Assembly (NCBI GenBank): GCA_000002445.1
Contig: AE017150.2
Location: 160,001-224,000 of the forward strand
Origin: Trypanosoma brucei
Taxonomy: Eukaryota
Direction of reading: 5' to 3'
Length of the DNA: 64,000 bases
Below are positions 5,141-50,500 of this stretch, one piece after another. The translations under genes and the position numbers were made by a program. The notes beneath the pieces are model-generated. The model was not told the origin of the DNA. It made no database searches and worked only from the letters and a program-made list of their open reading frames with translations. How positions within the stretch are numbered: position 1 is the first letter of the stretch; every line of letters begins with the position of its first letter.

Positions 5141-5160
5141 TATATATATATATATATATA
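5141..5160. repeat. (TA)10 microsatellite
   Basis: A perfect tatatatatatatatatata run. Confidence 0.95.
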
Positions 5161-21663: not shown

Positions 21664-24600
21664 TTCACTCTCCGAATAATAATCTTAACTGAGTGTGTTG
21701 TGTTATTTCCTTTCTTTGTAACATAAATAATAAAAAAAAATTAAGATGAGGGAATTTAAAATGGATACGCTTCTAAACCAAAGCAAATATACAATAAATG
21801 AATATCAGGAATTAATATGGCAGATGGAAACTATTTACTAAAATTGAGATTCAATACAAATCTTATCATGTGTTAAGAACTCACAGCAACTTAAGCACAA
21901 ATGAGGTATGACAGTATGAATAAACATTTCTGTTTGGAGGAAAACTCAAACAACAATTCCCATTCATAAAACACAATCATTTCAGAAAAAATAATATACT
22001 TAGATATATATAAGTATGTATTGAAAAGCAAAAAAAATAAATAAATGTGGCATTGCCATGAAAAACAGGAAATAATAGTTTTAGTGATAAGCTATGCAAA
22101 ACGTATACTCAGTTAAAGGTACTCATGTGCATAATGAAGGCGCTTCACATTAAGAAATAATACAAACAACTATCAGAATTTGCGTATAATCTCACACGAA
22201 CCGTCACTCGGAATGGCATTTTGTCATAACTTCCTAATGTGGAAAAACTACTTCTAATACATACTCTCACACTCCGAATCAGTACACAGTGTGCAAATGA
22301 AAGTACGAGGTATCAAAAAAAAAAAACAATAATAATCGCCGTAAAAAGTAAAACCAATGAAAATAAAATCTTATACATCAAAGAGGAAACTCTCACCTGA
22401 CGAACAAATGCTGCTCACTTTCTTTATTTAAGTGATCCTTTTTTTTTTTGCAGCCATGGAACCATGAATCTAAGAAATATATATGAAGGCACGAATGATA
22501 TTTGTTTTGCTTTGGTATTGGAGCATCTTGCCATGCGTCTGCTTTTGTGCCTTAGTGAACCTCAAAGAAACCAAAGGCTCACGGAAGGGAACAAATATAT
22601 TTGTGGGAATAATAATTCAATATTAGGCTTCTTTTGAGGAGTGTGCTGAGTGGAATAATGGTGAAAAAGAAGTATTGAAAATTTATGCCACATGGGCAAA
22701 TGCTTTACAATATTTTCTCGCTGTCTGAAAATATGAAATATAGGGAATATATAAGGAACCAGAAACATAGGGAATATATGAAGTATAAGGAAATATATCA
22801 AATATAAGAAAATATATGATATATTCTGAAGTGCCGGATGTGTTTGTGCGTGTCTTCGTATGTGTTCTCTGCTTTATATATCACTAAATATTTTACACAA
22901 TTCCTTTTACTTTGCGTATGCTAATCGCTTGTTTCTCCCTATATAAATTAGTGGAAATATCCATTAGAGAAATAATAATTTACTTTTTTTCTTTTCCCTT
23001 CTCTTCCTTTCCCGCTAATGTTTCACCGTCTATTTTCATTCCTTATAAATATTGTAAATTTCATTTTGTTACTGTAACTATTTCCAAAAAAAAGTGTAAG
23101 TAAGAAACTTTAGTATTACATATCATAATATCTCTAAACTCCTCTTTTGTCATGTTAAGCTACTAATATTTTTATTTCCCATTCATTTTATTCAGCAGAA
23201 CATACAAAACCCCTCAAAAGTCCTTCCTTGTTTTTTTTCCTCAACATCATAATATACCTTGTGGAATATACAAATATATAATAACCATAAATGTGTTATA
23301 CATCTTCACAACATCAGAAACTTCACAAAATAATTGTGTTCCTCAATAAGCAGTGGCTGTGTTTCCTTTTACTTTCTATCAGAGTCAAACTAATTAATTA
23401 ATTACTAATAACTTCCTCCAGATATATTGCTTCTATTTTCTTGGATTATTCAGCAGCGTAACACCGGAGTCTTGAAATAAAGAGTCACAGTTCAAAGAAT
23501 ACAAAACAGTAAAAAAAATTAACAGAGACTCGCACCTTCACATTTGGTTGCATTTGGATACATCAAACGCATTTATTCGCCTCCTTGTGTTTTCTTTTTG
23601 GGGTGGGAGGAGTAAATGCAAAATGTATCAAGTTGACGAGTAGCAGAAATACAACACTTGATATAATTTCACTTACATATAAGCTTTCTTTTCCAACTTT
23701 ATTCCAATTCATAATATTTTGATAGCAATGTAATGCAGTATTCAGCCATAAACATTTTAACCATAAATATAGTAACTAATGTGTGAATGGTAACCCATGG
23801 CGATACATTCCATATGGAACAATACCACATTGTTAAATATACGCATGGAATTAAAACTATAGCACTAAATTGAAAATGAAAAAATAAAAGAGAGAAAGAT
23901 ATGAATTATCAAGAAAGGCATATTCTTCACTAACATGCACTTGTTTCAATATAATCATAATTTGAAGTTACGCTAAATGATAAGTGACCCAATATTCTGA
24001 AATGACACAATAACAATGATTCCATTATAGCAACTGTAAAATAATGATATGCAATAAAATAAATGATAAAAATAAATTAAAATACAGCAAGCAGTGCAGA
24101 ATATATTCTATTGCTATATATAAACATTTGCAAACAGATGAATACCTTTACTCATTGGAAGAAAATAATTAAATTCAAACTTCCTATGATTCTGCCAGTG
24201 TTTGTCGGCTACATGTGGGACTCAAAAAAAACAAAAAGTTTATTTTAAATAAACATGAAGAAAAGAAAAACTTCGCATGAAACCATAAGGGTATCCGTGT
24301 GAGTTATTCGCTACTGTCAAACATAGTTAACTTCACAACCCTCAAGAAAGAGAGAAATAATAAAAGTAAAAGTAAAATTTCAAGTAAAAAAATAAAATAA
24401 AAAGTAAGGAAATATAACATAATTATGCTTAACTAACTGTAATGTGAGGAATGTAAAAATAACAAAATGTTACTCACAATTTAATGTTATCAATGTTTTC
24501 CTTCACAAACGAAAACTGTCACATCTCAATGTGTTCTTTCAAATTAATGTAACGGAACCAGATATGTTTGTATAATATTCTACAATGTCATTTGGCATAT

Positions 24601-25096
24601 CCGATGCTCACTCAAAAAAAAACTTATTCGTTTTGTTGCGATGTAGCTGTTGACAGTGTTGTGCTCTTTTTCTTTTATTTTATTTTTTTTTAACATACCG
24701 CTCCGCACTTCCGTAATCCCCTCAATATTCCTGCAGTTCCCATCATAAAAGATACAAAAGAAATCCATCAAAATAAAGTAACTGGAGTCCAAGATGCTGT
24801 AGAGCACAATGTATTTATTTTGAATAATGGAATCCTGTGATATCAAAGACAATCATCTGCAATGAATAAACTGAAACATTCATTGACTCATGCCACTAAA
24901 ATAATAATTAAATTGTTAAACACATGTTCCCATCGTGTGGTAAGTAATTCAAACAATTCTGTGGCCACATGAAATACTCGAAGAAAAAGGAAACGTATAC
25001 AATGCATAAGCCATTAGTAAAGTATAAATACAGTTTTTGGTATCGAATCCATCATATGTTACAAAGCCGCATTTCACTAACACACAAGAGCAAAAT
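21664..25096. repeat. S cassette, copy 1 (about 3.4 kb AT-rich intergenic unit). The RHS 5' flank lies at its low-coordinate end. It sits between an intact or chimeric MNQNGG-type RHS and a truncated RHS.
   Basis: It is nearly identical to 32861-36317 and 47568-50946. It contains an imperfect GGAATATAT-like minisatellite (about 22700-22830) and a conserved spurious ORF (24580-24852). Confidence 0.8.
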
Positions 25097-26844
25097 TTAA
25101 CTCAACATCATATTTCGAATCATCAGTGATAGAGCTTGGCAACTGTACGATTCGATTCCTCCAACATTTGCCTTCACTCTTATAACCTTCACCAACTTGT
25201 CCGTAACTTCATTGTTCTTCCAGGCAGCCGTATGCTCAATAATATCATTATAGGAATATTCACCCGATTTCTTCATAGTTTCCAACGCATCATGAACTCT
25301 TTTCAGACGCCATTCATAACAGCTTAAAACAAATATATAACGAGGCAAAAGCCCAATTGAATTAATACGTCCCTCCACTATTCTTTACACTCATCTTCCA
25401 TTTCCTTCCTCAATTCGTGTCTTCTTCTGTTGGACACCTTTTCCCTTGCATGTATTGACAGTTTTTTCCATGCCACAAATGCCTTCATGTCACGCACATC
25501 ATCACAGTTTATAATAATTTGGCGGCCTCCCCTATTTGTAGTCCAGTTACCAAAACGGACACTATTCGGAGAAGTGAAAATAGTTACACCCCAAACATCA
25601 GAGGGAAGTTGAGTGTAAGGCTGCTGCGTTTCGTACCTTATGTCCATAATGATGTGTCCTCTGTTTTCAAATTTCATTTTATTTATGGCGTTGACCGCAG
25701 CTCTCAAATATTCGTACCGCACAACCCTTCCCTCTTTCATCACCCTTTCTGTTATATATTAAGTAGGCGATCGTGTCTGTGAAATATGCAACAACATCAA
25801 GCATTCCTTCATGGAAGTGAAGCAATGAATGAAGCAAAAATGATCCAAGGCCACATGATTTACCAATTCCAGACGTGCCAATAACAATATGTATCAGTGG
25901 TCTGTGAGCTGTCCTTTCCACCCACCATGTCTGCAGCCCTTTTTCGCCTTTATACCACACGCGCATAATTTCACGACGGATGTATACGTGCTGAAATACT
26001 GCTTTGCGCCCCGTAGTGTAATCCAATGCAAACCTGTTGTATGGCCAACCCTTCTCCGAAGTGAGAACAAAAATTTCCAAACCATCAGGCCTCTCCTCAA
26101 TCTCTGCATCAACATTGGTAGGATCACGAGTTACATCAACCCCCGCTTCGGTCCAAATGCGCTGTGGCCTTCCATCGAACACTTTCATTCCAAGTGGCTC
26201 TTCATTATAACCCGACATCACATAACTCCATTTCGCATTATATATGGATTCATACAATCCTTTCAGTACGACAGCACCACCAGCTGTTTGGGCAGCTCGT
26301 TTCCTTGCAATGCTTCCTTGAGTGCATTATCCAACATGTTAGTGACAATAATCCAAGTCTGCTCTCCATTTCTCAGTCCACGAATATCCGCCTGTAACCT
26401 GGCCTTTACTTCCTCATTTGCTTGTTGCCACTGCTGAAGATTTAATATTCCCTCTCTGAACAACAGGGGGTAAGCAGTAGCAAAAACTTTGTACGTCCAA
26501 AAGACAGGTAGAAAAAATATATCGTCCAGTATATCCTCTCTTTCAATGTATCGCTCCGGCTTTCTGGAAAACACAAACATTGATACATTATTTTCTTCAT
26601 TCACATTATATCTTCTGCCAACATTACGCCTCAAAAAATCATTCAACATCACATTTTCAGGATGTGGCAGACCTTTCAGCAAAACTGCTTCAACGCTGCT
26701 GAAAAGACTCCATTGTGGTTGGTTATTATTCTCCACTCGTTGCTGCACTGCTGGAGGTTCCGCATCGTTACGCGCAGCCTCCTCATGCCCTCGTCTCCTT
26801 CCCTCAATGTCACCCCTTCCTTCAATAGGAACCTGTTGATTCAT
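25097..26844 (-). pseudogene. RHS pseudogene with multiple frameshifts. It is the C-truncated type that ends RNMMLS, with N-terminal type MNQQVPIEG.
   Basis: Four consecutive ORFs in different frames (26263-26844, 25679-26257, 25378-25743 and 25097-25378) together align to the 579-aa ORF at 50947-52686. Confidence 0.8.
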
Positions 26845-32860: not shown

Positions 32861-35800
32861 TTCACTGTCCGAATAATAATCTTAATTGAGTGTGTTGTGT
32901 TATTTCCTTTCTTTGTAATATTAATTTTAAAAAAGAATTAAGATGAGAGAATTTAAAATAGATACGCTTCTAAACCAAAGCAAATATACAATCAATGAAT
33001 ATCAGGAATTAATATGGAAGATGAAAACTATTTATTGAAATTAGAATTCAATACAAATCATATCATATGTTTAGAACTCACAGCAACTTAAGCACAAATG
33101 AGGTATGACAGTATGAATAAACATTTCTGTTTGGAGGAAAGCTCAAATAACAATTTCCAGTTACTGCACACAATCATTCCAGAAAAAATACTCACATATA
33201 TACGTATTGAAAACCCAAAAAAAATAAATTACTTCAACATTTCCATGAAAAACAGCATATAATAGTTTTAGCGATAAGCTATGTAAAATGTATAATACTT
33301 GGTTAAAGTTACTCATGTGCATGATGAAGGCGCTTCACATTAAAAAATAATACAAGCAACGATCAGAATTTGCGTATAATCTCACACGAACCGTCACTCG
33401 GAATGGCATTTTGTCATAACTTCCTAATGTGGAAAAACTATTTTAATGCCAACTCTCACACTCCGAATCAGTACACAGTGTGCAAATGAGAGTACGAGAT
33501 ATCAAAACATATACAATAATAGTCGCCGTAAAAAGTAAAACAAATAAAAATAAAATCTTATACATCAAAGAGGAAACTCTCACCTGACGAACAAATGCTG
33601 CTCACTTTCTTTAAGTGATCCTGTTTTTTTTTCTTCTTCTTGCAACCATGGAGCCATGAATCTAAGAAATATATATGAAGGCATGAAAGATATTTGTTTT
33701 TGTTTTTGGTATTGGAGCACCTTGCCATGCGTCTGCTTTTGCACCTTGATGAAACTCAAAAGAAACGAAAGGATTACGGAAGGGAACAAATATATTTGTG
33801 GGAATAATGATCCAATATTAGGCCTCTTTTGAGGAGTGTGCTGAGTGGAATAATGGTGAAAAAGAAGTATTGAAAATGTATGCCACATGGGCAAATGCTT
33901 TACAATGTTTTCTCTCTATCTGAAAAATATGGAATATATGGAATATATAAGGAACCAGAAACATAGGGAATATATGGAATATGTAAGGAAATATATCAAA
34001 TATAAGAAAATATATGATATATTCTGAAGTGCCGGATGTGTTTGTGCGTGTCTTCGTATGTGTTCTCTGCTTTATATATCACTAAATATTTTACACAATT
34101 CCTTTTACTTTGCGTATGCTAATCGCTTGTTTCTCCCTATATAAATTAGTGGAAATATCCATTAGAGAAATAATAATTTACTTTTTTTCTTTTCCCTTCT
34201 CTTCCATTCCAGCTAATGTTTCACCCGCCTATTTTCATTCCTTATAAATATTGTAAATTTCATTTTGTTACTGTAACTATTTCCAAAAAGAAAAGTGTAA
34301 GTAAGACAGTTTAAGCATTACATATCATAATATTTCTAAACTCCTCTTTTGTCATGTTAAGCTACTAATATTTTTTTCCCATTCATTTTATTCAGCAATA
34401 CATACAAAACCCCTTCAAAAGTCCTTCCTTGTTTTTTTCTTCAACATCATAATATATCTTGTGGAATATACAAATATATAATAACCATAAATGTGTTATA
34501 TATCATCACAACATCAGAAGCTATACAACAGAATTATGTTCTTCAAGAAGCGGTGTTTGTGTTTCCTTTTATTTTATCTCAGAGTCAAACTAATTAATTT
34601 AATAATTAATTACTAATAACATCCTCCAAAGATATTGCTTCTATTTTCTTGGATTACTCAGTAGCGTAACACCGGAGTCTTGCAATAAAGAGTCACAGTT
34701 CAAAGAATACAAAACAGTAAAAAAAATAAACAGAGACTCGCACCTTCACATTTGGTTGCATTTGGATACATCAAACATATTTATACACTTGCATTCCTAG
34801 TTTCTTTTTTGGGGGTGGGAGGAGTAAATGCAAAATGTATCAAGTTGACGAGTAGCAGAAATACAACACATGATATAATTTCACTTACATATAAGCTTTC
34901 TTTTCCCACTTTATTTCAATTCATAATATTTTGATAGCAATGTAATGCAGCATTCAGCTATAAACATTTTAACCATAAATATAGTAACTAATTTGTGAAT
35001 GGTAACCCATGGTGATACATTCCATATGGAACAATACCACATTGTTAAATATACGCATGGAATTAAAACTATAGCACTAAATTGAAAATGAAAAATTAGA
35101 AGAGAAAAAGATATGAATTATCAAAAGAAGCATATTCTTCACTAACATGCACTTGTTTCAATACAATCATAATTTGAAATTACTTTAAATGATAAGTGAC
35201 TTAATATCCTGAAATGACACAATAACAATGATTTCATTATAGCATCTGTAAAATAATGATATGCAATAAAATAAATAATAAAAATAAATTAAAATACAGC
35301 AAGCAGTGCAGTATATATTCTACTGCTATATATAAACATTTGCCAACAGATGAATAGCTTTGCTCATTGGAATAAAATAATTAAATTCAAACTTCCTATG
35401 ATTCTGCCAGTGTTAGTCGGCTACATGTGGGACTCAAAAAAAAAAACGAAAGTTTATTTTAAATAAACATGAAGAAAAGAAAAACTTCGCATGAAACCAT
35501 AAGGGTACCCCTGTGAGTTATTCGCTACTGTCAAACATAGTTAACTTCACAACCCTCAAGAAAGAAAGAATTAAATAATAAAAGTAAAAGTAAAATTTCA
35601 AGTTAAAAAAATAAAAATAAAAATTAAGGAAATATAACATAATTATGCTTAACTAACTGTAACGTGAGGAATGTAAAAATAACAAAATGTTACTCACAAT
35701 TTAATGTTATCAATGTTTTCCTTCACAAACGAAAACTGTCACATCTCAATGTGTTCTTTCAAATTAATGTAACGGAACCAGATATGTTTGTATAATATTC

Positions 35801-36317
35801 TACAATGTCATTTGGCATTGTCTGATGCTCACTCAAAAAAAAACTTATTCGTTTTGTTGCGATGTAGCTGTTGACAGTGTTGTGCTCTTTTTCTTTTATT
35901 TTATTTTTTTTTAACATACCGCTGCGCACTTCCGTAATCCCCTCAATATTCCTGCAGTTCCCATCATAAAAGAAACAAAAGAAATCCATCAAAATAAAGT
36001 AACTGGAGTCTAAGATATTGTAGAGCACAATGTATTTATTTTGAGTAATGGAATCCTGTGACATCAGAGACAGTCATCTGCAATGAATAAACTGAAACAT
36101 TCATTGACTCATGCCACTAAATTAATAATTAAATTGTTAAACACATATTCCCATCGTGCGGTAAGTAATTCAAACAATTCCGTGACCACATGAAATACTC
36201 GAAGAAAAAGGAAACGTATACAATGCATAAGCCATTAGTAAAGTATAAATACAGTTTTTGGTATCGAATACATCATATGTTACAAAGCCGCATGTCACTA
36301 ACACACAAGAGCACAAT
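32861..36317. repeat. S cassette, copy 2
   Basis: It is collinear with S1 and S3. Confidence 0.8.
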
Positions 36318-37049
36318 TTAACTCATCATCATATTTCGAATCATCAGTGATAGAGCTTGGCAACCGTACGATTCGATAACTCCAACATTTGCCTTCACTC
36401 TTACAACCTTTACCAACTTGTCCGTAACTTCATTGTTCTTCCAGGCAGCCGTATGCTCAATAATATCATTATAGGAATATTCATCCGACTTCTTCATAGT
36501 TTCCAACGCATCATGCACACTTTTCAGACGCCATTCATAACAGCTTAAACCAAATATATATAACGAGGCAGAGGTCCAATTGAATTCATACGTCCCTCCA
36601 CTATTCTTTCCACTCATCTTCCATTTCCTTTCTCAATTCGTGCCTTCTTCTGTTGGATACCTTTTCCCTTGCATGTATTGACAGCTTTTTCCATGCCACA
36701 AATGCCTTCATGTCACGCACATCATCACAGTTTATAATAATTTGGCGGCCTCCCGTATTTGTAGTCCAGTTACCAAAACGGACACTTATGGGGAAATCGA
36801 GAAACGTTACACTCCAAACATCAGAGGGAAGTTGAGTGTAAAGCTGCTGCGTTTCGTACCTTGTGTCCATAATGATGTGTCCTCTGTTTTCAAATTTTAT
36901 TTTATTTATGGCGTTGACCGCAGCTCTCGAATATTGGTACTGCACAACCCTCCCTCTTTCATCACCCTTTCTGTTATATATTAAGTAGGCGATCGTGTCT
37001 GTGAAATACGCAACAACATCAAACATTCCTTCATGGAAGTGAAGCAGTG

Positions 37050-37061
37050 AATGAAGCAAAA
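37050..37061. repeat. RIME target-site duplication, left copy (AATGAAGCAAAA)
   Basis: It is an identical 12-mer to 37590-37601, and the two copies immediately flank the element. Confidence 0.9.
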
Positions 37062-37298
37062 TTTTTTTTAGAATTTTCTTCGTGCCTTCGTGAGAGTTTC
37101 CCCCCACTGGCGCGGCCATCAGCCATCACCGTAGAGCCCTGAGATGCTATCGGTCTGGCGACTGTGGCAGAGTCTCCCTTTTTTATTCATCCTAACACAC
37201 CCTCTACAATTTTTGTTGTATTTCCGCATATGAACGGAATACAGCAGATGGGGCGAGAAGCCTCCCACCCCGGACTCTCCAAAGGATGCCAATTAGCA

Positions 37299-37336
<38 letters not shown>

Positions 37337-37589
37337 CGGAGTTCCACATCACCGGACAGCAGCATCTTAGTGCGGATGATACTGCTGATGGCACGCTGGC
37401 ACGTGCCCAGGGACCGACAAATGAAAAACGGTGTCCCAGCAAGACGCTGCTGATCCCTGTGCTGTATGATGCCGTAGCCGGAGCACAGCAGTGTTCCCCA
37501 TGAAAGGAACGCTGCTGGCTCTTGGCTTCCCCCGATGATACGGGGTACTGGACCCTGGCACCACGTTGAGGTGGCCGGCATCGCCAGGG
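37062..37589 (-). mobile_element. RIME (the ingi-derived short non-LTR retroposon), a complete copy with an A8 tail and an expanded internal A34 tract
   Basis: The 5' end on the minus strand is CCCTGGCGATGCCGGCCACCTCAACGTGGTGCCAGGGTCCAGTACCCCGTATCATCGGGGGAAGCCAAGAGCCAGCAGCG..., which is the ingi/RIME 5' signature. The 3' half is identical to the ingi 3' end at 16347-16580. It terminates in T8 on the plus strand (37062-37069). Confidence 0.85.
37303..37336. repeat. T34 homopolymer (A34 on the element strand) internal to the RIME
   Basis: It is an uninterrupted run of 34 T. The equivalent position in the second RIME copy (about 43267-43273) has only T7. Confidence 0.95.
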
Positions 37590-37601
37590 AATGAAGCAAA
37601 A
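37590..37601. repeat. RIME target-site duplication, right copy (AATGAAGCAAAA)
   Basis: It is identical to 37050-37061. Confidence 0.9.
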
Positions 37602-38472
37602 ATGATCCAACACCGTATGATTTACCAATACCAGGTGTACCAATAACAATATGTATCGGTGAATCCACCACTGCGTCATTCAGCCACCATGTTTTCAGAT
37701 CCTTTTGGATTTTATACCACACGCGCATAATTTCACGACGGATATATACATGCTGAAATGCTGCTTTGTGCCCCGTAGTGTAATCCAATGCAAACCTGTT
37801 GTATGGCCAACCTTCCTCCGAAGTGAGAACAAAAATCTCCAAACCATTGGGTCTCTCCTCAATCTCTGCATCAACATTCGCAGGAAGAGGAGTTACATCC
37901 ACCTCCGCTTCGGTCCATATGCGCCGTGGCCTTCCATTGAATACTTTCATTCCAAGTGGCTCTGTATGATAACCCGACATCACATAACTCCATTTCGCAT
38001 TATATATGGATTCATACACTCCTCTCAGTTCGACAGCACCACCAGCTGTTTGGGCAGCTCGTTCCCCCACTTCTTTGGCAATGCGCAGTGCCCTGTCCAA
38101 CTTTGTCGCTGCCACGGGACCAACAAATTCCCTTATTTCCCCTCTTCCCTTCTCCTCCCACTGACTGAGGGTGCTAATCCCATTACGAGGCAGATAAATA
38201 ACTGCCCTCAGTAATTGAAACTCATCAAGCCCCCGTATAATTCCTTGAAGCCTTGCATCCAAAATATAATCCTCCGGGCTCTGAACAAAAATGGGCATCC
38301 TAACATTTTCTGCTTCAGCCACCGCAAAAGTCCCGCCAACGAACTTCTGAATAAAGTCGTTCACTGTCATTTTACGCAAACCCGCATAATCTTCCAGCAG
38401 CACATCCCTCACCTTACTATCCATTGTCCAGTTGGGCCCCCCCTCATTTCTCTGCCGTATCTGTGGAGGCTG

Positions 38473-38496
38473 AGCAGCAGCAGCAGCAGCAGCAGC
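38473..38496 (-). repeat. (AGC)8 / (GCT)8 trinucleotide repeat encoding Ala8 in the RHS N-terminus
   Basis: It is translated as PPAPPAAAAAAAAQPP. The paralogue at about 62350 has only two Ala at this position. Confidence 0.9.
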
Positions 38497-38616
38497 AGGA
38501 GGAGCAGGCGGTACATTTTCATCCCGTGGCCTCCTCATGGGCCCTTCAATATTACCTGCCACTTGTTGGTTTGCATTATTTCCTTGTGGAGCTGCGGGAC
38601 TATTTGCTCTTGACAT

Positions 38617-40800
38617 AACTCTCTTAATATTATTAACTTAACTTCCTTTCCTTTCCTTTTTTCTCTGAAATTATAAATAACTGAAGTAAAATAATATATA
38701 AGGAAACAATAGTGTGTGAACAGTGTAACATAATATCAAATGTAATAAAGCGCGTTAATGTTTATTCACTATAGTTTGTATAATATGATATCATAATGTA
38801 TTTGGTATTGAGGGGAACAATTTCAAAATATAGCAGCTGTAAATAAATATTTCCCTTGCTTCATTATCATGTGCTAAATATAATTAACTTCCTGTATCAT
38901 TTCTTTCTAAACCATATATAATATGGAAACAAAAAATATTACTGCCTCATATACCTGCGTAAACACTTCGTATATATAATCAATATTTAAAGAGAGTCAA
39001 ATTCTATCAATTAAAATCAAGTAAAACAATAAACAATAAAATTTATGGATATTAATGAAACGAAGAAATAGAGTATCGGCACAACACATAGGGATATACA
39101 CACACATGAATACGCACTACACAACTGTTCCACTGGAGTTTCCTCACTTCTGTCAATACGTAACATTCACTTGCATTGAATAAACTCATTGAAAATATAA
39201 ATCACTTATCCCCTCCCCCGTGTATTCACTTACTTCCAAAGGAGAATATTAAATAATGTCTGTAGGACAGGTAAAAAAGAAACTGATACTCTATTTTGCA
39301 TCAGATAACCAAAAGGTATTTCCGTTTACTTTGATTATAAACAAAAACATCATTTCACCTTCAGTTAAAATAAAATTGAATTACTTGTCTACTCACTGTT
39401 CACAACTGTCATCAGCTAATTCATCCCCACATATTCACATGAATCTTATGTGCCATCGTTGTTGAATCCATTCACACATCTTCCATGATGGTGATTGCAC
39501 AACATACTGTAAATAATTGGAATGAAATTAATACAATTAATTGAGGAAACCGTAAAAGATTATCATAACATATCTTTTATTTTCCCTCCTTTCATTTACA
39601 CAAATTAAATATGTAATGAGACAATTCCCTTTCAGTACGTGTTCACACCTATTGTATCATCATTGTAAGTTTCCTATTGCTCATATACACGAAGCTACTG
39701 GAATAATAAAACAACACATTGAAACACCTTGAAAAAATATATAATAAATGTAAAAGAGGATGTATGAACTGACAGATAATAAAATGAAACACGTCTCGCA
39801 CTTTCCTTATAAATATTCAATAGTTGGTATGTTACAAATAAAAACAATTACACATTATAGAAAGGAAAGGATATAATTACATTATACACCTGTATGTGGA
39901 TATGTAACAGCGAATCATAGTAGAAATAAATTGTCTAAACACAATAGTTATGGAAGATAAAATAATTCAAAACATCAATAATATTATTCTATCAACATTC
40001 CCTTCCTTCTCCATTAAGTTTCCAAATGGTTTCAAATAATAATTCACATAATTCCATACATATGTTATGATGGGTATTGCATGCAGTACAACTTAAAGGA
40101 AGTGTAACTCATATAACATTTTCAAAAATAGGTGTTGAATGGTTGTTTGCTACCATCAATTACATTTCCAATGTCTGATTACACTTTTATATGCATGAAG
40201 GAAGTTACTGATGATAACTTTGACATGCTCGAGAATCCATAACACAAAGCGACTGCTGCATGCAATAAAAAATAAAAATATAAATAACATCCGAATTCAT
40301 TTACTGACAGATGAGTGCAAGTCATTCACCCAAACTTCATAGCTGCAGAAATAAACTCGCTGCTGCCAATAGGAAATGATCCCGCATAAATATTGAGTAT
40401 CTGAAAATGATAGCAACGGGTTTCCATTTTTGAAATATATGCATAAACTACATGAGGTATATGAAGCCATATTGGTAAAGTGTCACTACGCATGTTGCAA
40501 TTTACTATCAGAAGTGTCTGCCTTATTTTATTTCTTGTGTTAATGTAACTCATGAGTATCATTCATTATTCTTTACAATACAACTGTAAGTCATTTTGCA
40601 TTTTTACATATTTTCTTATTCCCTCATACTGGAAGTGTTCCACATATGAGATTCCTCAATATCGTTCACACAATAAAAATAATTTCATTTCCTTCTGCAT
40701 TCAGTTTCTTGTGCAGCAGTGTGTGCACTAATCATTCATAAAGTTTTTAATTTGCCAAATACATCATTACGAAACTATTTTCCACAAATAAACAAACAAA
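38617..40800. repeat. C cassette, copy 1 (the upstream region of MSRANS-type RHS)
   Basis: 38617-40130 is collinear with 62485-64000. 40038-40800 is collinear with 53246-54005. Confidence 0.75.
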
Positions 40801-41605
40801 CAAACATTTTTAAATGTTGCTGTGAAACGGAAATTGAATCACGGAAAATTGTGGGGCGCACACGTAATGGGCACCATGAATGCCTCTTTGGATATTCCTC
40901 TATGGCTTTTCACCAGCATCATCAACTTACTTTTTGTGTAAAAAAAAACAAAAAAGAAATAAAGGTACAAATGCATTAATAAACCCAACTCCTCAGCAGG
41001 AAATCAAGAACAGGAAGCCACGAAAAGCGTATGGCACATATGATTTTCACCTCTCAGTTACTTGAGGTGGATCGCATGATTTACCCACCTCCTAAGAACA
41101 CACCCTCCGAGAGGCCCGATTAAAAGAAAAAAAAACGCTATGACGGTTGAAAAGACGTTTTTCATAAACCTTCACTTTATACGTGAGGATGCATAAATAA
41201 ACAATGATAACGATGAGAATGCTAACGGAAACAATGACGAACCGTGAGGATCCTAGAAAATAAAATAAAATAAAATCATCACGTACCTTCACAGTAGGGA
41301 AACTTAATAAATAACAAAATATAAATATTCCCTACACAGAGGTATAGGGAGTGTTCGTCAACTTCGTAATGCTAATCAAAAAGCCTTCAAATGTATCGAT
41401 CATTCGTGTAGTCAATCAAATAAGAAGTAATATGTACTACACGCACAAAAGCACACTTATAAAGCCTACAAACCCACTTGCCCCCTTTTAGAGAATACCA
41501 CTCTCTAGTCAGTGATAGGAGAGGTGATATTAAAAGTTTTCCCTTTATAATTATTTCTGACTCCTCAATTCGTTGCAACATAACATAACATGCAAAGATG
41601 TTGCA

Positions 41606-44441
41606 TCAGTCAGCGGGGCCACCAGCAATAGCGTTTGGTTCATCCTGGGTGATCTCCTTAACAATATTCCCTTCCATCTTCACTTGAAACTGGTTGATTT
41701 TATTCCACAACTCTGTAGTATAATCGCCTCTGCCCCCAACTGGTTCGCACTTCTGCCTCACATCGATTGGCTTGCTGTCACTGTACTGTATGTAAATTAG
41801 CTCCCATTTCAAGTTTCTTGCGAGCTTATCCCATTCACGAAACAATTGTTTCATTGCCTTGATAAACTTATCTACCTTCGTTCGTGTCGTGTGATGCGTT
41901 GGTGCCACTGTCGGCTGGAGCAGAACAATTGTTGTTGCGGTGATCGCTCTTCCTTCTCTATCAACAGCTGGCTCAGTTACAAAGAAAAAGGCGTTCACAA
42001 CGGGGAAATTTCCCTGTACAGGTCGGTAAAGGCACCCAACCTCAATGTCTTGGCCTGTCGTTTCGGGGTTAAACTGACGAAGTGAAGTTGGAACACGTCC
42101 CACGGCATTACCACTTGCCAGAGCGGATACATTTGAATCCATTTCTTCTCCAACGCGAGGGAGATACCGCAGGTGCGTCACAATCGTCTGCACAACATTT
42201 CCCATCGTGAAGGCATATATGCCCACATTTTCAAATTCATCATTGGCCTGCTCTTCTTTCCCACGAAAAACCTTCCGAAGGTAATTGTCTCGCATACATG
42301 CTGTGTCCGCCCACACTCTCAATTTCTGCTCAATATAAACGGAAACAGCTCTGTTTCTGCATTCTTCTCATTCTCAGTTACAACCCGGACCAACTTAGCC
42401 AACCTGTATGTAGTCCCGTCCTCGCGCCATTCAACTCGACCATTCAGCACCTTCATGTAGTGTTCAGCATCGCCTCTACTGATTTCCTCCAGTGCCCCAT
42501 TTATTTCTCTAACATGGTCACAATAGGGTTTGTCACCTTCCAGTACGTGGCGGGGCAGTGGGCCCACCTTCTTAATCCATCCTAATATTTTCCCCCATTC
42601 GTTCTCAAGGTTTATGATGTGAGTTTCGGTGATTTTACTTGCCTCCAACTTTGACAGCCGCCTCCACGAAACCGCAGCCTTCAGTTCCACCTTTTCATAG
42701 CAATTGATGCAAAGGAACTCGTAACCCCGTGGTTCCTTCCACTCTCTGTAGTTATTTGGATCTGGAGATGTCAACACAATTACGGGCCACGCTCCCGGCA
42801 ATTTTGTCGGTATGGGTTCATCTCTCTCTTTCGAAAAGTCGTATATAATGTAACCAAGAAGCTTTTCATCAACGAAGGCCTTCACAGCATCCAATCCATC
42901 TACTTCCTCTTCATAGAATACAACCCTTCCCGGATGATCGTTTGTCGCCCTGAAGAAAATATATGCCTCGCCCTTCACAAAATAAGCGATATTCCGCAAC
43001 AGCTCCTAATCGTAATGCAGCAACCCTTGGAGCAGAAATTTTCTTCGTGCCTTCGTGAGAGTTTCTCCCCACTGGCGCGGCCATCAGCCATTACCGCAGA
43101 GCCCTTAGATGCTATCGGTCTGGCGACTGTGACAGAGTCTCCCTTTTTTATTCATCCTAACACACCCTCTATAATTTTTGTTGTAGCTCCGCAGTTGAAC
43201 GGAATACAGCAGATGGGGCGAGAAGCCTCCCACCCTGGGCTCTCCCAAAGATGTCAATTAGAAATCCTTTTTTTGGAGTTCCACATCACCGGACAGCAGC
43301 ATCTTAGTGCGGATGATACTGCTGATGGCACGCTGGCACGTGCCCAGGGACCGACAAATGAAAAACGGTGTCCCAGCAAGACGCTGCTGATCCCTGTGCT
43401 GTATGATGCCGTAGCCGGAGCACAGCAGTGTTCCCCATGAAAGGAACGCTGCTGGCTCTTGGCTTCCCCTGATGATACGGGGTACTGGACCCTGGCACCA
43501 CGTTAAGGCAGATTCATTCTTAGTGTAAGCTAAATACTCGCTGGCCGCGGGGATCGATTCCGGTACTATCTGCGACGACCAATCTACTTAACCACTAAAC
43601 CAGCGTAAGCCGAATATAATAGCCAGCACCAACTGATTTCCCAATACCTGCACTGCCGACGAGGACGCAAGGAATCTGTTTTTCGATCAGCCCTGACTCC
43701 AGCCACAAATCCAGCCTGTGCTTCACAAGATACCACACTCTCATTACCTCTCGACGAATGTACACATCCCGGTCAAACACGTAGTCTCCTGGTTCCTCCG
43801 CATCCTCTTGAATTGCATGTTCCGGAATGCTGAAAGAGTTATATGGCCAACTCTTCTGCGAGGTGAGCACAGCAATCTCTAAATTACCGTGACGAGGCAG
43901 TGGGTCGCACAAGTCATAAGGCGTGTGACTGACATTCACCTCCTCTTCTGTCCACAACTCGGGCTCGCCGTCACTATTACCCACCACCTTCATGCCAAGA
44001 GGTAAATCATTGTGACCCGACTCTACATAACCCCACGTCGCATTATATATAGAATCATATACTCCTTCAAGGTTTACAGCACCAGCAGCTGTTTGGTCAG
44101 CTTGCTTTTCCTTGCTTCTTTGGAAATGCGCAGTGCACTGTCCAACTTCGCCGCTGCAGTGAGGCAACAAGTTCCCTTATTTGCGCTGTTGCCCTCTCTT
44201 CCCAGTGCTGCATGTCTTCAATTCTATTACTAGGAGGGTAAATAACTGCCCTCGGTAATTGAAACTCGTCAGTATCCTGTATATCCTCAAGAATCTCGGC
44301 ATCAACATTAATATATCTTCTGAGATTATTAACAAACACATCCATGGACACATTCTCTGTGTTATACGTGTTTGAGGAAAACTGATTCAAAAAGTCATGC
44401 AGTTTCATTTCACCCAAACTCGCATAATCTTCCAGCAGCAC
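41606..44441 (-). pseudogene. RHS pseudogene interrupted by a 5'-truncated RIME. It is a composite of a C-part (41606-43024, one frameshift near 42320, C-terminus ...AGGPAD), the RIME, a filler and an N-part (43595-44441).
   Basis: The C-part ORFs 42319-42999 and 41606-42322 align to RHS from LLQGLLHYD/AYFVKGEAYIF to the C-terminus. The N-part ORFs 43595-44170 and 44097-44441 align to the RHS N-terminus up to GIGKSVGAG. Confidence 0.8.
43025..43508 (-). mobile_element. RIME copy 2. It has no poly(A) tail, its 5' end is truncated by about 18 nt, and its internal A-tract is 7 nt.
   Basis: It is identical to the RIME at 37062-37589 apart from its ends. It is followed on the 5' side by about 85-110 bp of unassignable sequence (43509-about 43615) before RHS resumes. 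Confidence 0.8.
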
Positions 44442-45539: not shown

Positions 45540-47567
45540 TTACCTTCGGCCCGCAGCAGCCACCGCAAGCATTTTGATAACTATGTTATCCTCATACTGC
45601 ACATGGTACTGCTGCACATTGTTCTTCCAGAATCCCTCCACAAACTGGTGACTGCGGTGCTTTGCCTTACCCTGTGTAATTTCACACTTCTGCTCAGACC
45701 TCATCGCTGTGGATTCGAAGTGCTGAACGTAAATGATTTCCCAGTGAAACATCTCAGTAATTTCCTTCAACTGCTCAACGGTAGCCTCATTCTGGTGACC
45801 ACCCCCCTCCGCACTTGGCAAGAGGGATTGTAGCAAATGAATGAATTCGTCGGTTTTTGTGTCATGTCTGCTGGCAACAGTAAACTGCAACAACACAATA
45901 GTTTTCTTTCCTGTGGTTCCTGAAGCCTGTGCAGCCTGCTCGTCATCAACAATAAAGAATGCATCCGCTACGGGGTAGTTGGGAACGCATGGCACATATA
46001 ATTCCACCGGAGCCCCCTCCGACTCAGCCCAGTTGATGTCACCTGGCACTGTTTTTGGTCGACGGACTTTGAGGAGGCCATCCCTTACGTGTTGCAAAAT
46101 GCTTTTGCGTGTCCTCATGCGTCTGGCCCTTTCATTTGCTGGAAGTTTCGTTATTAGATTTACGAAGCAAGTTAACACTCTGGGGGAACACAAATATTTA
46201 ATTGCATTCTCCTCAAAATAAAGCCCGATGGCAGATGCATTCCGCATCATACCAGTTGTCAGTGCCCACTCCTCAGCAATGCCGGAAAACACTACATTCA
46301 AAATTCTTTTCTTTATAGATTCAGAATGCGCCACGCAGACATACGTGTCAAAGGAGTTTCCTTCTCGAGCTTTGATACGAACGATCTTCACGAGCTTATG
46401 TGATGCATCATTGTCCCTCCATTCCCCACAGTTGTCCAGTACCTTAGTATATATTCCGTACTTGTTACCTGCTACGATACTCCCCAATTCCCCGTCCACT
46501 GCAGTAAGCTCCTGTCCATACATTACTTCGTCAAACACATAACGAAGTGAAGGTCCGACACGCTCCACACGGTTCTCATACATGTTCCACTTTTCCCTCA
46601 ACTCAACATGCGTGGCTTGAGGAAAAAGCTTGGGTCCCATACGTGAGAAGAAAGCCCGCATTTCACTCATTTCCCAGCAGTTAACAACAATAAACGCGCC
46701 TTTACGTTGCTTTTGCCAGCTGTCAAAATTTCTCAAATTAGGTGAACTGATCAAAATGCTTCCCCATTTTGGAGCCACATCTGCCGGTGGCTGCTCGCCT
46801 TTTTTGACAAAGTCATAAATAACATAACCACGTGTATTAGATGATATAACCTTCATAAACGTTATAGCCGCTTCTTTACTGTACTCCCTAACTCTGCCAA
46901 CGCCACCACCACCTGATTTCTCAAATATATATGCGGCTACACCACGGAAGTACGCAACAACAGGTAACTCTTCCGCATCATAATGCAATAACTTGTAGAG
47001 GATAAAAGAACCCAAATTCTGAGATTTACCAATCCCAGGATTACCAATGGCAACGTATGATCGTGGTAAATAAGGACATCCCGGTATAACACGCTGGGCA
47101 CGCCATAATTCAATTCCACTCCTTACAAAATTCCATACACGGAGCTCTTCTCTGCGAATGAATATGTCACTGTTACTTCCCCGGGCAAAGTCTGTATATG
47201 GCCAACCCATTTCAGACGTAAGAACCAACAGCTCCACTCCTTTAGTGCGTTCCGGCTTCTGTTCAAGAGTTTCCTCAATTTCAGGCACGACATTAACTTC
47301 CTCATCCTTCCACATCAAACCCTCATTGGGCATTCCATCAACCATCCTCATTCCCAATGGTTGAGTTCCATCGTCGATAATAATATAACTCCATTTCGCA
47401 TTATAGGTGGAATCGTATAATTTCTCTTCGAGAGACTTGCCCTCTCCGGTTTCTGATGGGTTCTCGTTTTGTCGGCCGGCTTGTCTCTTCATTGGGCAGT
47501 ACGCACCATTCAACCATCCATTTAAAACATTCCGAGTATCTCCTACACTACCGCCGTTCTGATTCAT
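45540..47567 (-). CDS. RHS: Retrotransposon hot spot protein (RHS), intact 675-aa ORF. It is a paralogue of the RHS at 19639-21663.
   Basis: It is a full-length ORF with MNQNGG...GIGKSQNLGSFILYKLLHYDAEELPVVAYF...VAAAGRR. It is about 95% identical to copy 1, except for a divergent patch at about 46325-46545. Confidence 0.85.
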   Translation of the reverse strand: MNQNGGSVGDTRNVLNGWLNGAYCPMKRQAGRQNENPSETGEGKSLEEKLYDSTYNAKWSYIIIDDGTQPLGMRMVDGMPNEGLMWKDEEVNVVPEIEETLEQKPERTKGVELLVLTSEMGWPYTDFARGSNSDIFIRREELRVWNFVRSGIELWRAQRVIPGCPYLPRSYVAIGNPGIGKSQNLGSFILYKLLHYDAEELPVVAYFRGVAAYIFEKSGGGGVGRVREYSKEAAITFMKVISSNTRGYVIYDFVKKGEQPPADVAPKWGSILISSPNLRNFDSWQKQRKGAFIVVNCWEMSEMRAFFSRMGPKLFPQATHVELREKWNMYENRVERVGPSLRYVFDEVMYGQELTAVDGELGSIVAGNKYGIYTKVLDNCGEWRDNDASHKLVKIVRIKAREGNSFDTYVCVAHSESIKKRILNVVFSGIAEEWALTTGMMRNASAIGLYFEENAIKYLCSPRVLTCFVNLITKLPANERARRMRTRKSILQHVRDGLLKVRRPKTVPGDINWAESEGAPVELYVPCVPNYPVADAFFIVDDEQAAQASGTTGKKTIVLLQFTVASRHDTKTDEFIHLLQSLLPSAEGGGHQNEATVEQLKEITEMFHWEIIYVQHFESTAMRSEQKCEITQGKAKHRSHQFVEGFWKNNVQQYHVQYEDNIVIKMLAVAAAGRR

Positions 47568-50500
47568 TTCACTCTCTGAATAATAATCTTAATTGAGTGT
47601 GTTGTGTTATTTCCTTTCTTTGTAACATAAATTAAAAAAGAATTAAGATGAGAGAATTTAAAATGGATACGCTTCTAAACCAAATCAAATATACAAAAAT
47701 GAATATTAGGAATTAATATGGCAGATGGAAACTATTTATTGAAATTAGGATTCAATACAAATCTTATCATGTGTTGGGGTGTCACGGCAACTTAAGCACA
47801 AATAAGGTATGACAGTATGAATAAACATTTCTGTTTGGAGGAAAACTCAAACAACAATTCTCAGCTACTGCACACCATCATTCCAGAAAAAATAATATAC
47901 TTAGATATATTTATGTATTGAAAAGCAAAAAAATAAATAAATGTGGCATTGCCATGAAAAATGGGAAACAATAGCTTTACTCATAAGCTATGTAAAACGT
48001 AGAATACTCGATTAAAGTTACTCATGTGCATGATGAAGGCGCTTCACATTAAGAAATAGTACAAACAACTATCAGAACTTGCGCATAATCTCACATGAGC
48101 CGTCACTCGGAATGACATTTTGTCATAACTTCCTAATGTGGAAAAACTATTTCTAATGCCAACTCTCACGCTCCGAATCAGTACACAGTGTGCAAATGAG
48201 AGTACGAGATATCAAAACAATAATAATCGCCGTAAAAAGTAAAACCAATGAAAATAAAATCTTATACATCAAAGAGGAACCTCTCTCACCTGACGAACAA
48301 ATGCTGCTCACTTTCTTTATTCTTTATTTAAGTGATCCTGTGTTTTTTTTTCTTGCAACCATGGAGCCATGAATCTAAGAAATATATATATGTGAAGGCA
48401 TGAAAGATATTTGTTTTGCTTTGGTATTGGAGCACCTTGCCATGCGTCTGCTTTTGCGCCTTGGTGAAACTCAAAAGAAACGAAAGGCTCACGGAAGGGA
48501 ACAAATATATTTGTGGGAATAATAATTAAATATTAGGCCTCTTTTGAGGAGTGTGTTGAGTGTAATAATGGTGAAAAAGAAGTATTGAAAATTTATGCCA
48601 CATGGACAAATGCTTTACAATGTTTTCTCTCTATCTGAAAATATGGAATATATGGAATATATAAGGAACCAGAAACATAGGGAATATATGAAGTATAAGG
48701 AAATATATCAAATATAAGAAAATATTTGAAATATATGGAAAACATATGAGAGGCAAAAAGAATGGAAAGAAATTTGGTAAATGAATATACATTCATGGAA
48801 ATATCCATTAGAGAAATAATAATTTTCTTTTTCTCCTCCCTTCCCGCTAATGTTTCACCCGCTTATTTCCATTCCTTATAAATATTGTAAATTTCTTTTT
48901 GTTACTGTAACTATTTCCAAAAAAAAAGTGTAAGTAAGACACTTTAAGCATTACATATCATAATATCTCTAAACTCCTTCTATGTTATGTTAATCTACTA
49001 ATATTTTCATTCCCATTCATTTTATTCAGCAGAACATACAAAACCCCCTCAAAAGTCCTTCCTTGTTTTTTTCTTCAACATCATAACATATCTTGTGGAA
49101 TATACAAATATATAATAACCATAAATGTGTTATATATCATCACAACATCAGAAGCTTCACGACATAATTGTGTTCCTCAAGAAGCAGTGGTTGTGTTTCC
49201 TTTTATTTTATCTCATAGTCAAACTAATTAATTAATTACTAATAACATCCTCCAAAGATATTGCTTCTATTTTCTTGGATTGTTCAGCAGCGTAACACCG
49301 GAGTCTTGAAATAAAGAGTCACAGTTCAAAGAATACAAAACAGTAAAAAAAAAATAATAAACAGAGACTCGCACCTTCACAATTGGTTGCATTTGGATGC
49401 ATCAAACATATTTATTCGCCTCCTTGTGTTTTTTTTTTGGGGGTGGGAGGAGTAAATGCAAAATTATATCAAGTTGACGAGTAGTAGAAATACAACACTT
49501 GATATAATTTCACTTACATATAAGCTTTCTTTTCCCACTTTATTCCAATTCATAATATTTTGATAGCAATGTAATGCAGCATTCAGCTATAAACATTTTA
49601 ACCATAAATATAGTAACTAATGTGTGAATGGTAACCCATGGCGATACATTCCATATGGAACAATACCACATTGTTAAATATACGCATGGAATTAAAACTA
49701 TAGCACTAAATTGAAAATGAAAAATTAAAAGAGAAAAAGATATGAATTATCAAAAGAGGCATATTCTTCACTAAGATGCACTTGTTTCAATACAATCATA
49801 ATTTGAAATTACTTTAAATAATAAGTGGCCCAATATCCTGAAACGACACAATAACAATGATTTCATTATAGCATCTGTAAAATAATGATATGCAATAAAA
49901 TAAATAATAAAAATAAATTAAAATACAGCAAGCAGTGCAGAATATATTCTATTGCTATATATAAACATTTGCCAACAGATGAATACCTTTACGCATTGGA
50001 AGAAAATAATTAAATTCAAACTTCCAATGATTCTGCCCAGTGTTTGTCGGCTACATGTGGGACTCAAAAAAAAACAAAAATTTATTTTAAATAAACATGA
50101 AAAAAAGAAAAACTTCGCATGAAACCATAAGGGTACCCCTGTGAGTTATTCGCTACTGTCAAACATAGTTAACTTCACAACCCTCAAGAAAGAAAGAATT
50201 AAATAATAAAAGTAAAAGTAAAATTTCAAGTTAAAAAAATAAAAATAAAAATTAAGGAAATATAACATAATTATGCTTAACTAACTGTAATGTGAGGAAT
50301 GTAAAAATAACAAAATGTTACTCACAATTTAATGTTATCAATGTTTTCCTTCACAAACAAAAACTGTCACATCTCAATGTGTTCCTTCAAATTAATGTAA
50401 AGGAACCAGATATGTTTGTATAATATTCTACAATGTCATTTGGCATTGTCCGATGCTCACTCAAAAAAAAAAACTTATTCGTTTTGTTGCGATGTAGCTG

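What the first reader, a model, noticed from the sequence alone, without database searches (positions are those of the whole stretch)
37050..37601. Complete RIME insertion with a perfect 12-bp target-site duplication inside an RHS gene at the canonical hotspot
A 528-bp element with the ingi/RIME 5' signature and 3' terminus plus a poly(A) tail lies on the minus strand. It is flanked by direct AATGAAGCAAAA repeats that recreate the RHS codons S-F-L-L-H-S just downstream of the GIGKS P-loop. It is a clean, apparently recent retroposition. It gives the exact empty-site sequence for the other, messier insertions in the window.
Basis: partly seen in the sequence, partly recalled or inferred. Interest (0 to 1): 0.6.

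Follow-up and report, generated by a model that had tools for sequence, protein, structure and literature searches.

The report
RIME retroposon in RHS hot spot
This is an ordinary, already described case: a full-length 0.5-kb RIME retroposon of Trypanosoma brucei sits, flanked by a perfect 12-bp duplication, at the well-known insertion hot spot of an RHS pseudogene on chromosome 2 of the reference strain.

Summary
AATGAAGCAAAA occurs at 37050-37061 and 37590-37601. The two copies bracket a 528-bp minus-strand element (37062-37589).

The element begins with the ingi/RIME 79-bp signature (CCCTGGCGATGCC...) and ends ...GAAAATTCT plus A8. It matches the first 248 nt and the last 274 nt of a full ingi. 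It also carries all eight published RIME-LAMP primer sites in order.

Removing the element and one 12-mer restores the RHS frame ...GTPGIGKSYGVGSFLLHSLLHF.... Four uninterrupted paralogues in the window have the 12-mer once, at the same position.

The window is T. b. brucei TREU927 chromosome 2: three ORFs are identical to XP_951494, XP_951495 and XP_951496. This is a published RHS cluster.

Three qualifications apply:
- The host is an RHS3-type pseudogene in any case. It shares a 2-nt frameshift with a RIME-free paralogue.
- The perfect duplication does not prove recency, because the 12-mer is invariant among paralogues.
- The other two insertions in the window lie at the same codon position but in other RHS subfamilies, with different 12-mers.

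The only oddity is an internal A34 tract, where other copies have A6-A7.

Verdict: real, correctly interpreted and already known, so of low interest.

The parts
37062..37589 (-). Full-length RIME (non-autonomous ingi-clade retroposon), 528 bp including the A8 tail and the internal A34 tract
   Evidence: Element nt 1-248 are 95.6% identical to ingi nt 1-248, and element nt 255-528 are 90.5% identical to ingi nt 4986-5259 of L002. The element is 92.3% identical over its full length to the T. b. gambiense RIME. All 8 RIME-LAMP primer sites of PMC4358998 map in order.
37511..37589 (-). 79-bp 5' signature (Pr77 hallmark) of ingi-clade retroposons, starting CCCTGGCGATG
   Evidence: Identical to the first 79 nt of the DAL972 RIME and near-identical to the T. 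equiperdum ingi. L1Tc nt 1-11 are CCCTGGCTGAG (PMC1874656). The MFE fold gives helices 1-7/31-37, 15-19/26-30 and 45-49/56-60, compatible with the HDV-like fold, but z = -0.76, so this is not a test.
37337..37589 (-). RIME-A half (the 5' end of ingi, about 253 nt)
   Evidence: No private substitutions in this half.
37303..37336 (-). Internal A34 tract at the RIME-A/RIME-B junction (T34 on the + strand)
   Evidence: Other copies have A6 (DAL972) and A7 (43-kb copy). ingi has an A-rich stretch at this point.
37070..37302 (-). RIME-B half (the 3' end of ingi)
   Evidence: Two private substitutions, at element nt 306 and 383.
37062..37069 (-). 3' poly(A) tail, A8
37590..37601 (-). Target-site duplication, upstream copy in element and gene orientation (TTTTGCTTCATT)
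37050..37061 (-). Target-site duplication, downstream copy in element and gene orientation
37602..38616 (-). 5' part of the host RHS pseudogene (codons 1 to about 339, ending with the P-loop GTPGIGKS plus YGVGS)
   Evidence: Pfam DUF7578, RHS_N and the first 22 positions of RHSP. tblastn gives 71% identity to the intact paralogue.
36276..37049 (-). 3' part of the host RHS pseudogene (RHS3-type C-terminus). A frameshifting 2-nt insertion lies near 36609-36610 and a private TA insertion near 36561-36562.
   Evidence: Pfam RHSP positions 17-165. 93% nt identity to the intact 579-aa RHS at 50947-52686, whose C-terminal half closely matches RHS3 Q8WPQ6. The frameshift is shared with the 25-kb paralogue.
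37204..38616 (-). Chimeric read-through ORF (470 aa): the RHS N-terminus fused in phase to the ingi/RIME N-terminal peptide MPATSTWCQGPVPRII..., then a run of 11 lysines from the A34 tract, then a stop in RIME-B
   Evidence: The tail is 91% identical to the N-terminus of an ingi ORF (P0019).

Best explanation
The element is a full-length TbRIME, the 0.5-kb non-coding deletion derivative of the autonomous retroposon ingi. It is inserted in the sense orientation at the retrotransposon hot spot of an RHS3-type RHS pseudogene on T. b. brucei TREU927 chromosome 2. The inferred mechanism comes from the established model for ingi-clade and other non-LTR retroposons. A RIME transcript was mobilised in trans by the ingi-encoded endonuclease and reverse transcriptase. 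The enzyme nicked the strand that is the window's + strand, immediately after AATGAAGCAAAA. It used that 3' end to prime reverse transcription from the RNA's poly(A) end. It then nicked the RHS sense strand 12 nt away, after ...CATT. Repair of the staggered cuts duplicated the 12 nt. Because the hot spot always has the same codon phase, the RHS frame runs into the ingi/RIME N-terminal frame and stops in RIME-B. Comparison with paralogues suggests that the insertion hit a copy that was already frameshifted, after that copy had separated from the RIME-free duplicate at 25 kb. The element is little decayed. Shown here: the identity of the element, the exact boundaries, the TSD, restoration of the empty site, the hot-spot position, the genomic origin and the pre-existing frameshift. 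Inferred: the enzymology, the order of the nicks, and that the insertion happened in this very copy.
For: Element identity. Boundaries and TSD. Excision restores ...GTPGIGKSYGVGSFLLHSLLHFHEGMFDVVAYF..., 128/132 nt identical to the intact paralogue at 61464, and four paralogues carry the 12-mer once. The host is RHS by Pfam RHSP, RHS_N and DUF7578. Origin: ORFs 19639-21663, 45540-47567 and 50947-52686 are exactly XP_951494, XP_951495 and XP_951496 of TREU927, on a 1,193,948-bp contig. The same codon position is occupied by a RIME in T. b. gambiense DAL972, with TSD TaCTGTTATACA/TtCTGTTATACA. A 12-bp TSD is the stated hallmark of Tbingi/TbRIME, and RIME uses the ingi machinery (PMC3820030). RIME is ingi minus its central 4.7 kb (PMC2323293). 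The hot spot lies just downstream of the ATP/GTP motif (PMC7563717). 78 of 118 TREU927 RHS are pseudogenes (PMC6393297). The frameshift is shared with the RIME-free 25-kb copy. The left flank is 92.9-93.6% identical to two RIME-free duplicates, and those alignments stop exactly at the 12-mer. The element has only 2 private substitutions.
Against: Nothing contradicts the identification. For 'inserted in this copy, recently' the evidence is weaker. The consensus used to count private substitutions rests on only five other copies or halves. The perfect TSD is uninformative because the target 12-mer is invariant among paralogues. The nearest relative of the flanks changes across the insertion site: the 3' side is 95-96% identical to the 25-kb and 51-kb copies, while the first 60 nt on the 5' side are closest to the 61-kb copy and the sequence beyond +480 resembles only the 61-kb copy. 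Recombination at or near the element is therefore possible. No orthologous empty site from another strain could be retrieved.
Confidence: 0.72

Rival explanations
1. The RIME was not inserted into this copy. The retroposition happened in another RHS (pseudo)gene. The element, with one or both flanks, arrived here by homologous recombination, gene conversion or segmental duplication among RHS paralogues, producing a chimeric pseudogene. The 'TSD' stays perfect simply because all these paralogues carry the same 12-mer.
For: The flanks are mosaic. The 3' side is 95-96% identical to the 25-kb and 51-kb copies. Identity drops to 75-83% in the first 100 nt on the 5' side. Beyond +480 only the 61-kb copy is similar. 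The 12-mer is identical in all four uninterrupted paralogues. PMC7563717 summarises Bringaud 2002 as proposing that RHS pseudogenes arise by crossing-over between RHS variants upstream of the retroelement site.
Against: The C-terminal divergence that starts right after the hot spot is the normal subfamily structure of RHS, so a change of nearest relative there is expected without any recombination at the RIME. One clear mosaic breakpoint lies near +480, not at the element. No second copy of this RIME variant exists in the window.
Confidence: 0.24
2. The direct repeat and the element are a chance resemblance or an assembly artefact, for example a mis-joined repeat in a repetitive subtelomere-like array.
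For: The region is highly repetitive, with duplicates about 93% identical. A 34-nt homopolymer is the kind of feature that assemblies can distort.
Against: A 12/12 match at both exact termini of a full-length element has a chance probability of about 6e-8. Excision restores an open RHS frame. The same architecture is seen in an independent genome. Three neighbouring ORFs match the finished TREU927 chromosome 2 proteins exactly.
Confidence: 0.02

Closest known systems
TbRIME / Tbingi pair of Trypanosoma brucei (Hasan et al. 1984; Kimmel et al. 1987; Bringaud et al. 2004, as cited in PMC3820030 and PMC2323293)
   Same: The 79-bp 5' signature, the fusion of the ingi 5' end (about 250 nt) with the ingi 3' end (about 250 nt), the poly(A) tail, the 12-bp TSD, the lack of coding capacity for RT/EN, and the size of about 0.5 kb.
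   Different: Only the internal A tract differs: A34, against A6-A7 in the two other RIME copies examined. There are also two private substitutions.
RHS hot-spot insertions (Bringaud et al. 2002, Eukaryot Cell 1:137; summarised in PMC7563717 and PMC6393297)
   Same: Insertion in the 5' part of the RHS coding region, a few codons after the ATP/GTP-binding motif. The codon position is the same as in the DAL972 RHS pseudogene. The element is in the sense orientation and in phase with the RHS frame. From memory of that paper's abstract, the chromosome II RHS cluster of TREU927 was one of the clusters analysed, so this very copy was probably among those described.
   Different: Nothing of substance. 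Here the host copy can be shown to carry an older frameshift that it shares with a RIME-free duplicate.
L1Tc/NARTc of T. cruzi, and SINE/LINE pairs in general (Alu/L1)
   Same: A non-autonomous element mobilised in trans by target-primed reverse transcription. It shares the Pr77 hallmark with L1Tc/NARTc and has the same 12-bp TSD.
   Different: Beyond the first 77-79 nt the sequence is a different family. Promoter activity shown for the L1Tc Pr77 was not detected for the ingi/RIME 5' ends, according to PMC1874656.

Membership tests
TbRIME (ingi-clade non-autonomous retroposon) | 79-bp 5' signature starting CCCTGG | tested here: met
   37511-37589 (-) is identical to the first 79 nt of the DAL972 RIME and near-identical to a T. 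equiperdum ingi. L1Tc starts CCCTGGCTGAG.
TbRIME (ingi-clade non-autonomous retroposon) | Made of the two ends of ingi (about 250 nt each) without the 4.7-kb core | tested here: met
   blastn against the 5.26-kb ingi of L002: ingi nt 1-248 at 95.6% and nt 4986-5259 at 90.5%, contiguous in the element. Definition taken from PMC2323293.
TbRIME (ingi-clade non-autonomous retroposon) | 3' poly(dA) tail | tested here: met
   A8 at 37062-37069.
TbRIME (ingi-clade non-autonomous retroposon) | 12-bp target-site duplication | tested here: met
   12/12 identical, and a single copy in four empty paralogues. The 12-bp size is stated as characteristic in PMC3820030.
TbRIME (ingi-clade non-autonomous retroposon) | Matches the reference RIME sequence used for diagnostics | tested here: met
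   All 8 RIME-LAMP primer segments map colinearly. Six have 0 mismatches, one has 1 and one has 3 (primers from PMC4358998).
TbRIME (ingi-clade non-autonomous retroposon) | No reverse transcriptase or endonuclease coding capacity | tested here: met
   The ORF that reads through the element has only RHS Pfam domains. The element is 528 bp.
TbRIME (ingi-clade non-autonomous retroposon) | Conserved T-rich recognition pattern upstream of the insertion (Bringaud 2004) | not tested
   The consensus is not given in the papers held. The 18 nt upstream of the element are T-rich (10/18) by eye. That is not a test.
TbRIME (ingi-clade non-autonomous retroposon) | Mobilisation in trans by ingi; HDV-like ribozyme activity of the 5' end | not testable with these tools
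   Requires experiments. The MFE fold is compatible but not significant. No Rfam family matches.
RHS (retrotransposon hot spot) protein family | RHS domains and the P-loop motif | tested here: met
   Pfam RHSP, RHS_N and DUF7578 on both halves. GTPGIGKS is present in the reconstructed frame. Best database hits are T. brucei RHS proteins.
RHS (retrotransposon hot spot) protein family | Retroelement at the family's fixed hot-spot position | tested here: met
   The TSD starts five codons after GKS. The nucleotide phase is the same as for the RIME in the DAL972 RHS pseudogene. The 16-kb and 43-kb copies in the window are interrupted at the homologous place.
RHS (retrotransposon hot spot) protein family | Subfamily by C-terminus (RHS1-6) | tested here: met
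   The 3' half is 93% nt identical to the 579-aa RHS at 50947-52686, whose C-terminal half closely matches RHS3 Q8WPQ6. This makes it RHS3-type. The N-terminal part is mosaic.

The most novel reading that the evidence does not exclude
The insertion could be a very young, strain-specific (polymorphic) event in the TREU927 lineage, which would be direct evidence that ingi/RIME retroposition is still going on. The A34 tract could then be a fresh reverse-transcriptase or replication slippage product. The in-phase RHS::RIME read-through ORF (470 aa, P-loop retained) could be an expressed truncated protein or a source of siRNA.
Probability: 0.2. Interest if true: 0.3.

Novelty: already known. Interest (0 to 1): 0.1.

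Why it matters
As a discovery it matters little. RIME/ingi insertion at a fixed position in RHS genes gave the family its name in 2002, and this locus lies in the finished reference chromosome. It is useful as a clean worked example. It gives base-exact element boundaries, the 12-bp stagger of the ingi endonuclease cuts, and an empty-site sequence for RHS copies of this N-terminal type. It also carries a methodological caution. In multigene families whose target site is conserved, a perfect target-site duplication says nothing about the age of an insertion, nor about whether the insertion occurred in that copy.

Tried and rejected
- **Rfam.** A permissive search of 36900-37750 and a gathering-threshold search of the whole window found no real family, only chance hits with E between 0.1 and 0.9. 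No curated model exists for the ingi/RIME 5' ribozyme-like region.
- **Folding of the first 85 nt.** The helices are compatible with an HDV-like fold, but z = -0.76, so it is not evidence.
- **Retrieving the locus or its orthologues.** I tried exact protein look-up with the chimeric ORF, the intact 842-aa RHS, the 579-aa RHS, P0006 and P0029. None is on record in the gene-position index. Presence or absence in other strains could therefore not be tested.
- **Original RHS paper.** Bringaud et al. 2002 (DOI and PMC118050) is not held. Its content is cited only through later papers or marked as memory.
- **Two-event origin of the A34 tract.** I considered that the tract might mean two separate events: a polyadenylated RIME-A fragment plus a second insertion. 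I rejected this because the RIME-A/RIME-B junction is the canonical one seen in the DAL972 and 43-kb copies, with only the A-run length differing.
- **13-bp or longer TSD.** I rejected this in favour of 12 bp, because the DAL972 copy shows that the element starts with three Cs.
- **tRNA-like appearance of the filler next to the 43-kb RIME.** It is not supported by ARAGORN or by Rfam.

Full report
**Observation**

I read 36800-37900 directly. The + strand has AATGAAGCAAAA at 37050-37061 and again at 37590-37601.

Between the two copies lie 528 nt. They start with T8 and end with ...GGCCGGCATCGCCAGGG. On the minus strand this is an element that begins CCCTGGCGATGCCGGCC... and ends ...CACGAAGGCACGAAGAAAATTCT followed by A8.

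The repeat finder returns the flanking pair as a 16/17 repeat with 540-nt spacing. The exact 12-mer occurs six times in the window. Two copies flank the element. Each of the other four (25828, 32287, 51675, 61464) is the single copy in an RHS paralogue.

**What the element is**

- A self-search of the window finds two relatives. One is a 3' half at 16339-16614 (92.8% identity). The other is a degraded full copy at 43037-43508 (90.8%).
- Independent references came from the protein search and the contigs fetched from its hits.
- Locus L001, on a T. b. gambiense DAL972 chromosome, holds a full RIME that is 92.3% identical over all 528 nt. Locus L002, from T. equiperdum, holds a 5.26-kb ingi.
- Against that ingi, the window element matches nt 1-248 (95.6%) and nt 4986-5259 (90.5%) and nothing in between. 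This is the definition of RIME: ingi minus its central 4.7 kb (PMC2323293).
- The eight primer segments of the published RIME-LAMP assay (PMC4358998) all map inside the element, colinear and in the right orientation. Six of them have no mismatch.
- No Rfam family matches.
- The first 37 nt can form the 7-bp helix CCCUGGC/GCCAGGG that encloses a short hairpin. This is compatible with the HDV-like fold described for the related L1Tc 5' end, but the fold energy is not unusual. I treat it as context only.

**What it is inserted into**

All long ORFs from 14 kb to 63 kb lie on the minus strand, and they are RHS genes or pseudogenes.

The ORF upstream of the element (37204-38616) has Pfam DUF7578, RHS_N and the first 22 positions of RHSP. 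The ORF downstream (36601-37119) continues RHSP from position 17.

Deleting 37062-37601 in silico gives ...PIHIVIGTPGIGKSYGVGSFLLHSLLHFHEGMFDVVAYFTDTI.... This is 128/132 nt identical to the intact paralogue around 61464, and it has the same layout as the other three uninterrupted copies.

The 12-mer in gene sense, TTTTGCTTCATT, starts in the sixth codon after GKS. That agrees with the published position of the hot spot just downstream of the ATP/GTP-binding motif (PMC7563717). In DAL972 the RIME sits at the same nucleotide phase in another RHS subfamily (GIGKSFSVGSLLLY|), flanked by TaCTGTTATACA and TtCTGTTATACA. The phrase 'canonical hot spot' is justified.

**Where the window comes from**

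Three ORFs (19639-21663, 45540-47567 and 50947-52686) are identical in sequence to XP_951494, XP_951495 and XP_951496 of T. b. brucei TREU927, on a contig of 1,193,948 bp, which is chromosome 2.

No proteins are annotated between the first two. This fits the four RHS copies in between, including this one, being annotated as pseudogenes.

From memory of the abstract of Bringaud et al. 2002, the chromosome II cluster of TREU927 was one of the three RHS clusters analysed there. I could not open that paper.

**State and history of the host copy**

After in-silico excision the frame is open for 491 codons and then stops.

Compared with the intact 579-aa paralogue at 50947-52686, the part downstream of the hot spot is 93% identical but carries two 2-nt insertions. 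The C-terminal half of that paralogue closely matches RHS3 Q8WPQ6. The first insertion, near 36609-36610, is shared with the RIME-free paralogue at 25 kb. The second is private.

The 4 kb on the 3' side (33000-37061) is 92.9% identical to 21803-25839, and 34139-37061 is 93.6% identical to 48785-51686. Those alignments end exactly at the 12-mer.

The simplest history is as follows. An RHS3-type copy acquired a frameshift. It was then duplicated. One duplicate later received the RIME.

The 5' side is mosaic. It is similar to all paralogues for about 480 nt. Beyond that it resembles only the copy at 61 kb.

**Is it recent?**

The perfect TSD cannot answer this, because the 12-mer is identical in every paralogue of this type. 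It is presumably conserved coding sequence or is homogenised by conversion. It would remain 'perfect' with age, or after recombination between two RIME-bearing copies.

Better evidence is the state of the element. Against five other copies or halves it has two private substitutions in about 490 nt. The 43-kb copy has 21, and has also lost its first 18 nt and its tail. By comparison, the flanks differ by 5-7% from their duplicates.

This favours an insertion much younger than the duplication, but the consensus is thin. I could not obtain orthologous loci from other strains.

**Mechanism**

By the standard model for ingi-clade retroposons (PMC3820030; PMC4035085), RIME RNA is copied at the target by the ingi-encoded endonuclease and reverse transcriptase. 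Two staggered single-strand cuts 12 nt apart generate the duplication.

From the geometry here, the priming nick is on the window's + strand after ...GCAAAA. The second nick is on the RHS sense strand after ...CATT.

The element is in the same orientation as the RHS transcription unit, and it is in phase with the RHS frame. The RHS frame reads ...FLLHSLA and then MPATSTWCQGPVPRII..., which is the N-terminus of the ingi ORF (91% identity to P0019). It continues through a run of 11 lysines encoded by the A34 tract and stops in RIME-B, giving a 470-aa chimeric ORF.

These enzymatic steps are inferred, not shown.

**The one oddity**

The A34 tract lies at the junction of the two RIME halves. The DAL972 copy has A6 there, the 43-kb copy has A7, and ingi has an A-rich stretch. 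It is the only homopolymer run of 20 or more in the 64 kb.

Because the junction itself is canonical, I read the tract as a slippage expansion rather than as a sign of a composite origin.

- The host is a pseudogene regardless of the RIME.
- Recency is plausible but is not shown by the TSD.
- The other two insertions are a 5'-truncated ingi at 16334-17904 and a degraded RIME at 43035-43508. They occupy the homologous position in different RHS subfamilies, with different 12-mers. This site therefore gives their position, not their exact empty-site sequence.

**Verdict**

The feature is real, and it is correctly identified. It is a textbook member of a known kind at a known site in a published reference chromosome. 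Novelty: already known. Interest: low.

Noticed in passing
window 16334-17904 (-): A 5'-truncated ingi: the last 1571 nt, 95.4% identical to a T. equiperdum ingi, and including a C2H2 zinc-finger ORF. It sits at the hot spot of another RHS pseudogene. An A8 tail is followed by TAA and then TACTGTTATACA. The 5' junction joins RHS at about residue 315, so the P-loop region has been lost.
   Followed up: partly
window 43035-43508 (-): A degraded RIME at the hot spot of a third RHS pseudogene. Its first 18 nt are replaced, it has no poly(A) tail, and it has 21 private substitutions. Its internal A tract is only A7.
   Followed up: partly
window 43509-43610 (-): About 100 nt of unexplained filler lie between the P-loop codons (GSAGIGKSVGAGYY) and the truncated RIME. 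The filler matches nothing else in the window or in the fetched loci. It looks faintly tRNA-like by eye, but ARAGORN finds nothing and Rfam finds nothing at E up to 5.
   Followed up: partly
window 21803-25839, 33000-37061, 48785-51686; also 40038-40808 and 53246-54018: Segmental duplicates, 93-96% identical, that carry RHS3-type copies and their downstream AT-rich spacers. Only the middle copy has the RIME.
   Followed up: partly
window 37045-37061 and 37585-37601: The target just beyond the TSD (gene sense CACTG) resembles the RIME 5' end (CCCTG). This extends the direct repeat to 16/17 and makes the boundary ambiguous by one base. It could be microhomology or coincidence.
   Followed up: no
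window 59959-62601 (-): An intact 880-aa RHS ORF (842 aa from the MSRANSP start) is not present as an exact sequence in the protein collection, although three neighbouring RHS ORFs are. It may be annotated with another start or as a pseudogene.
   Followed up: partly
window 69-3038 (+): A 989-aa leucine-rich-repeat protein gene lies convergent with the minus-strand RHS array. The 3-15 kb region between them has no long ORFs, apart from an RHS fragment on the + strand at 7775-8329.
   Followed up: no
window 10000-64000: GC skew is persistently negative (cumulative -3.7 over the window). This is consistent with a single minus-strand polycistronic unit of RHS genes.
   Followed up: no
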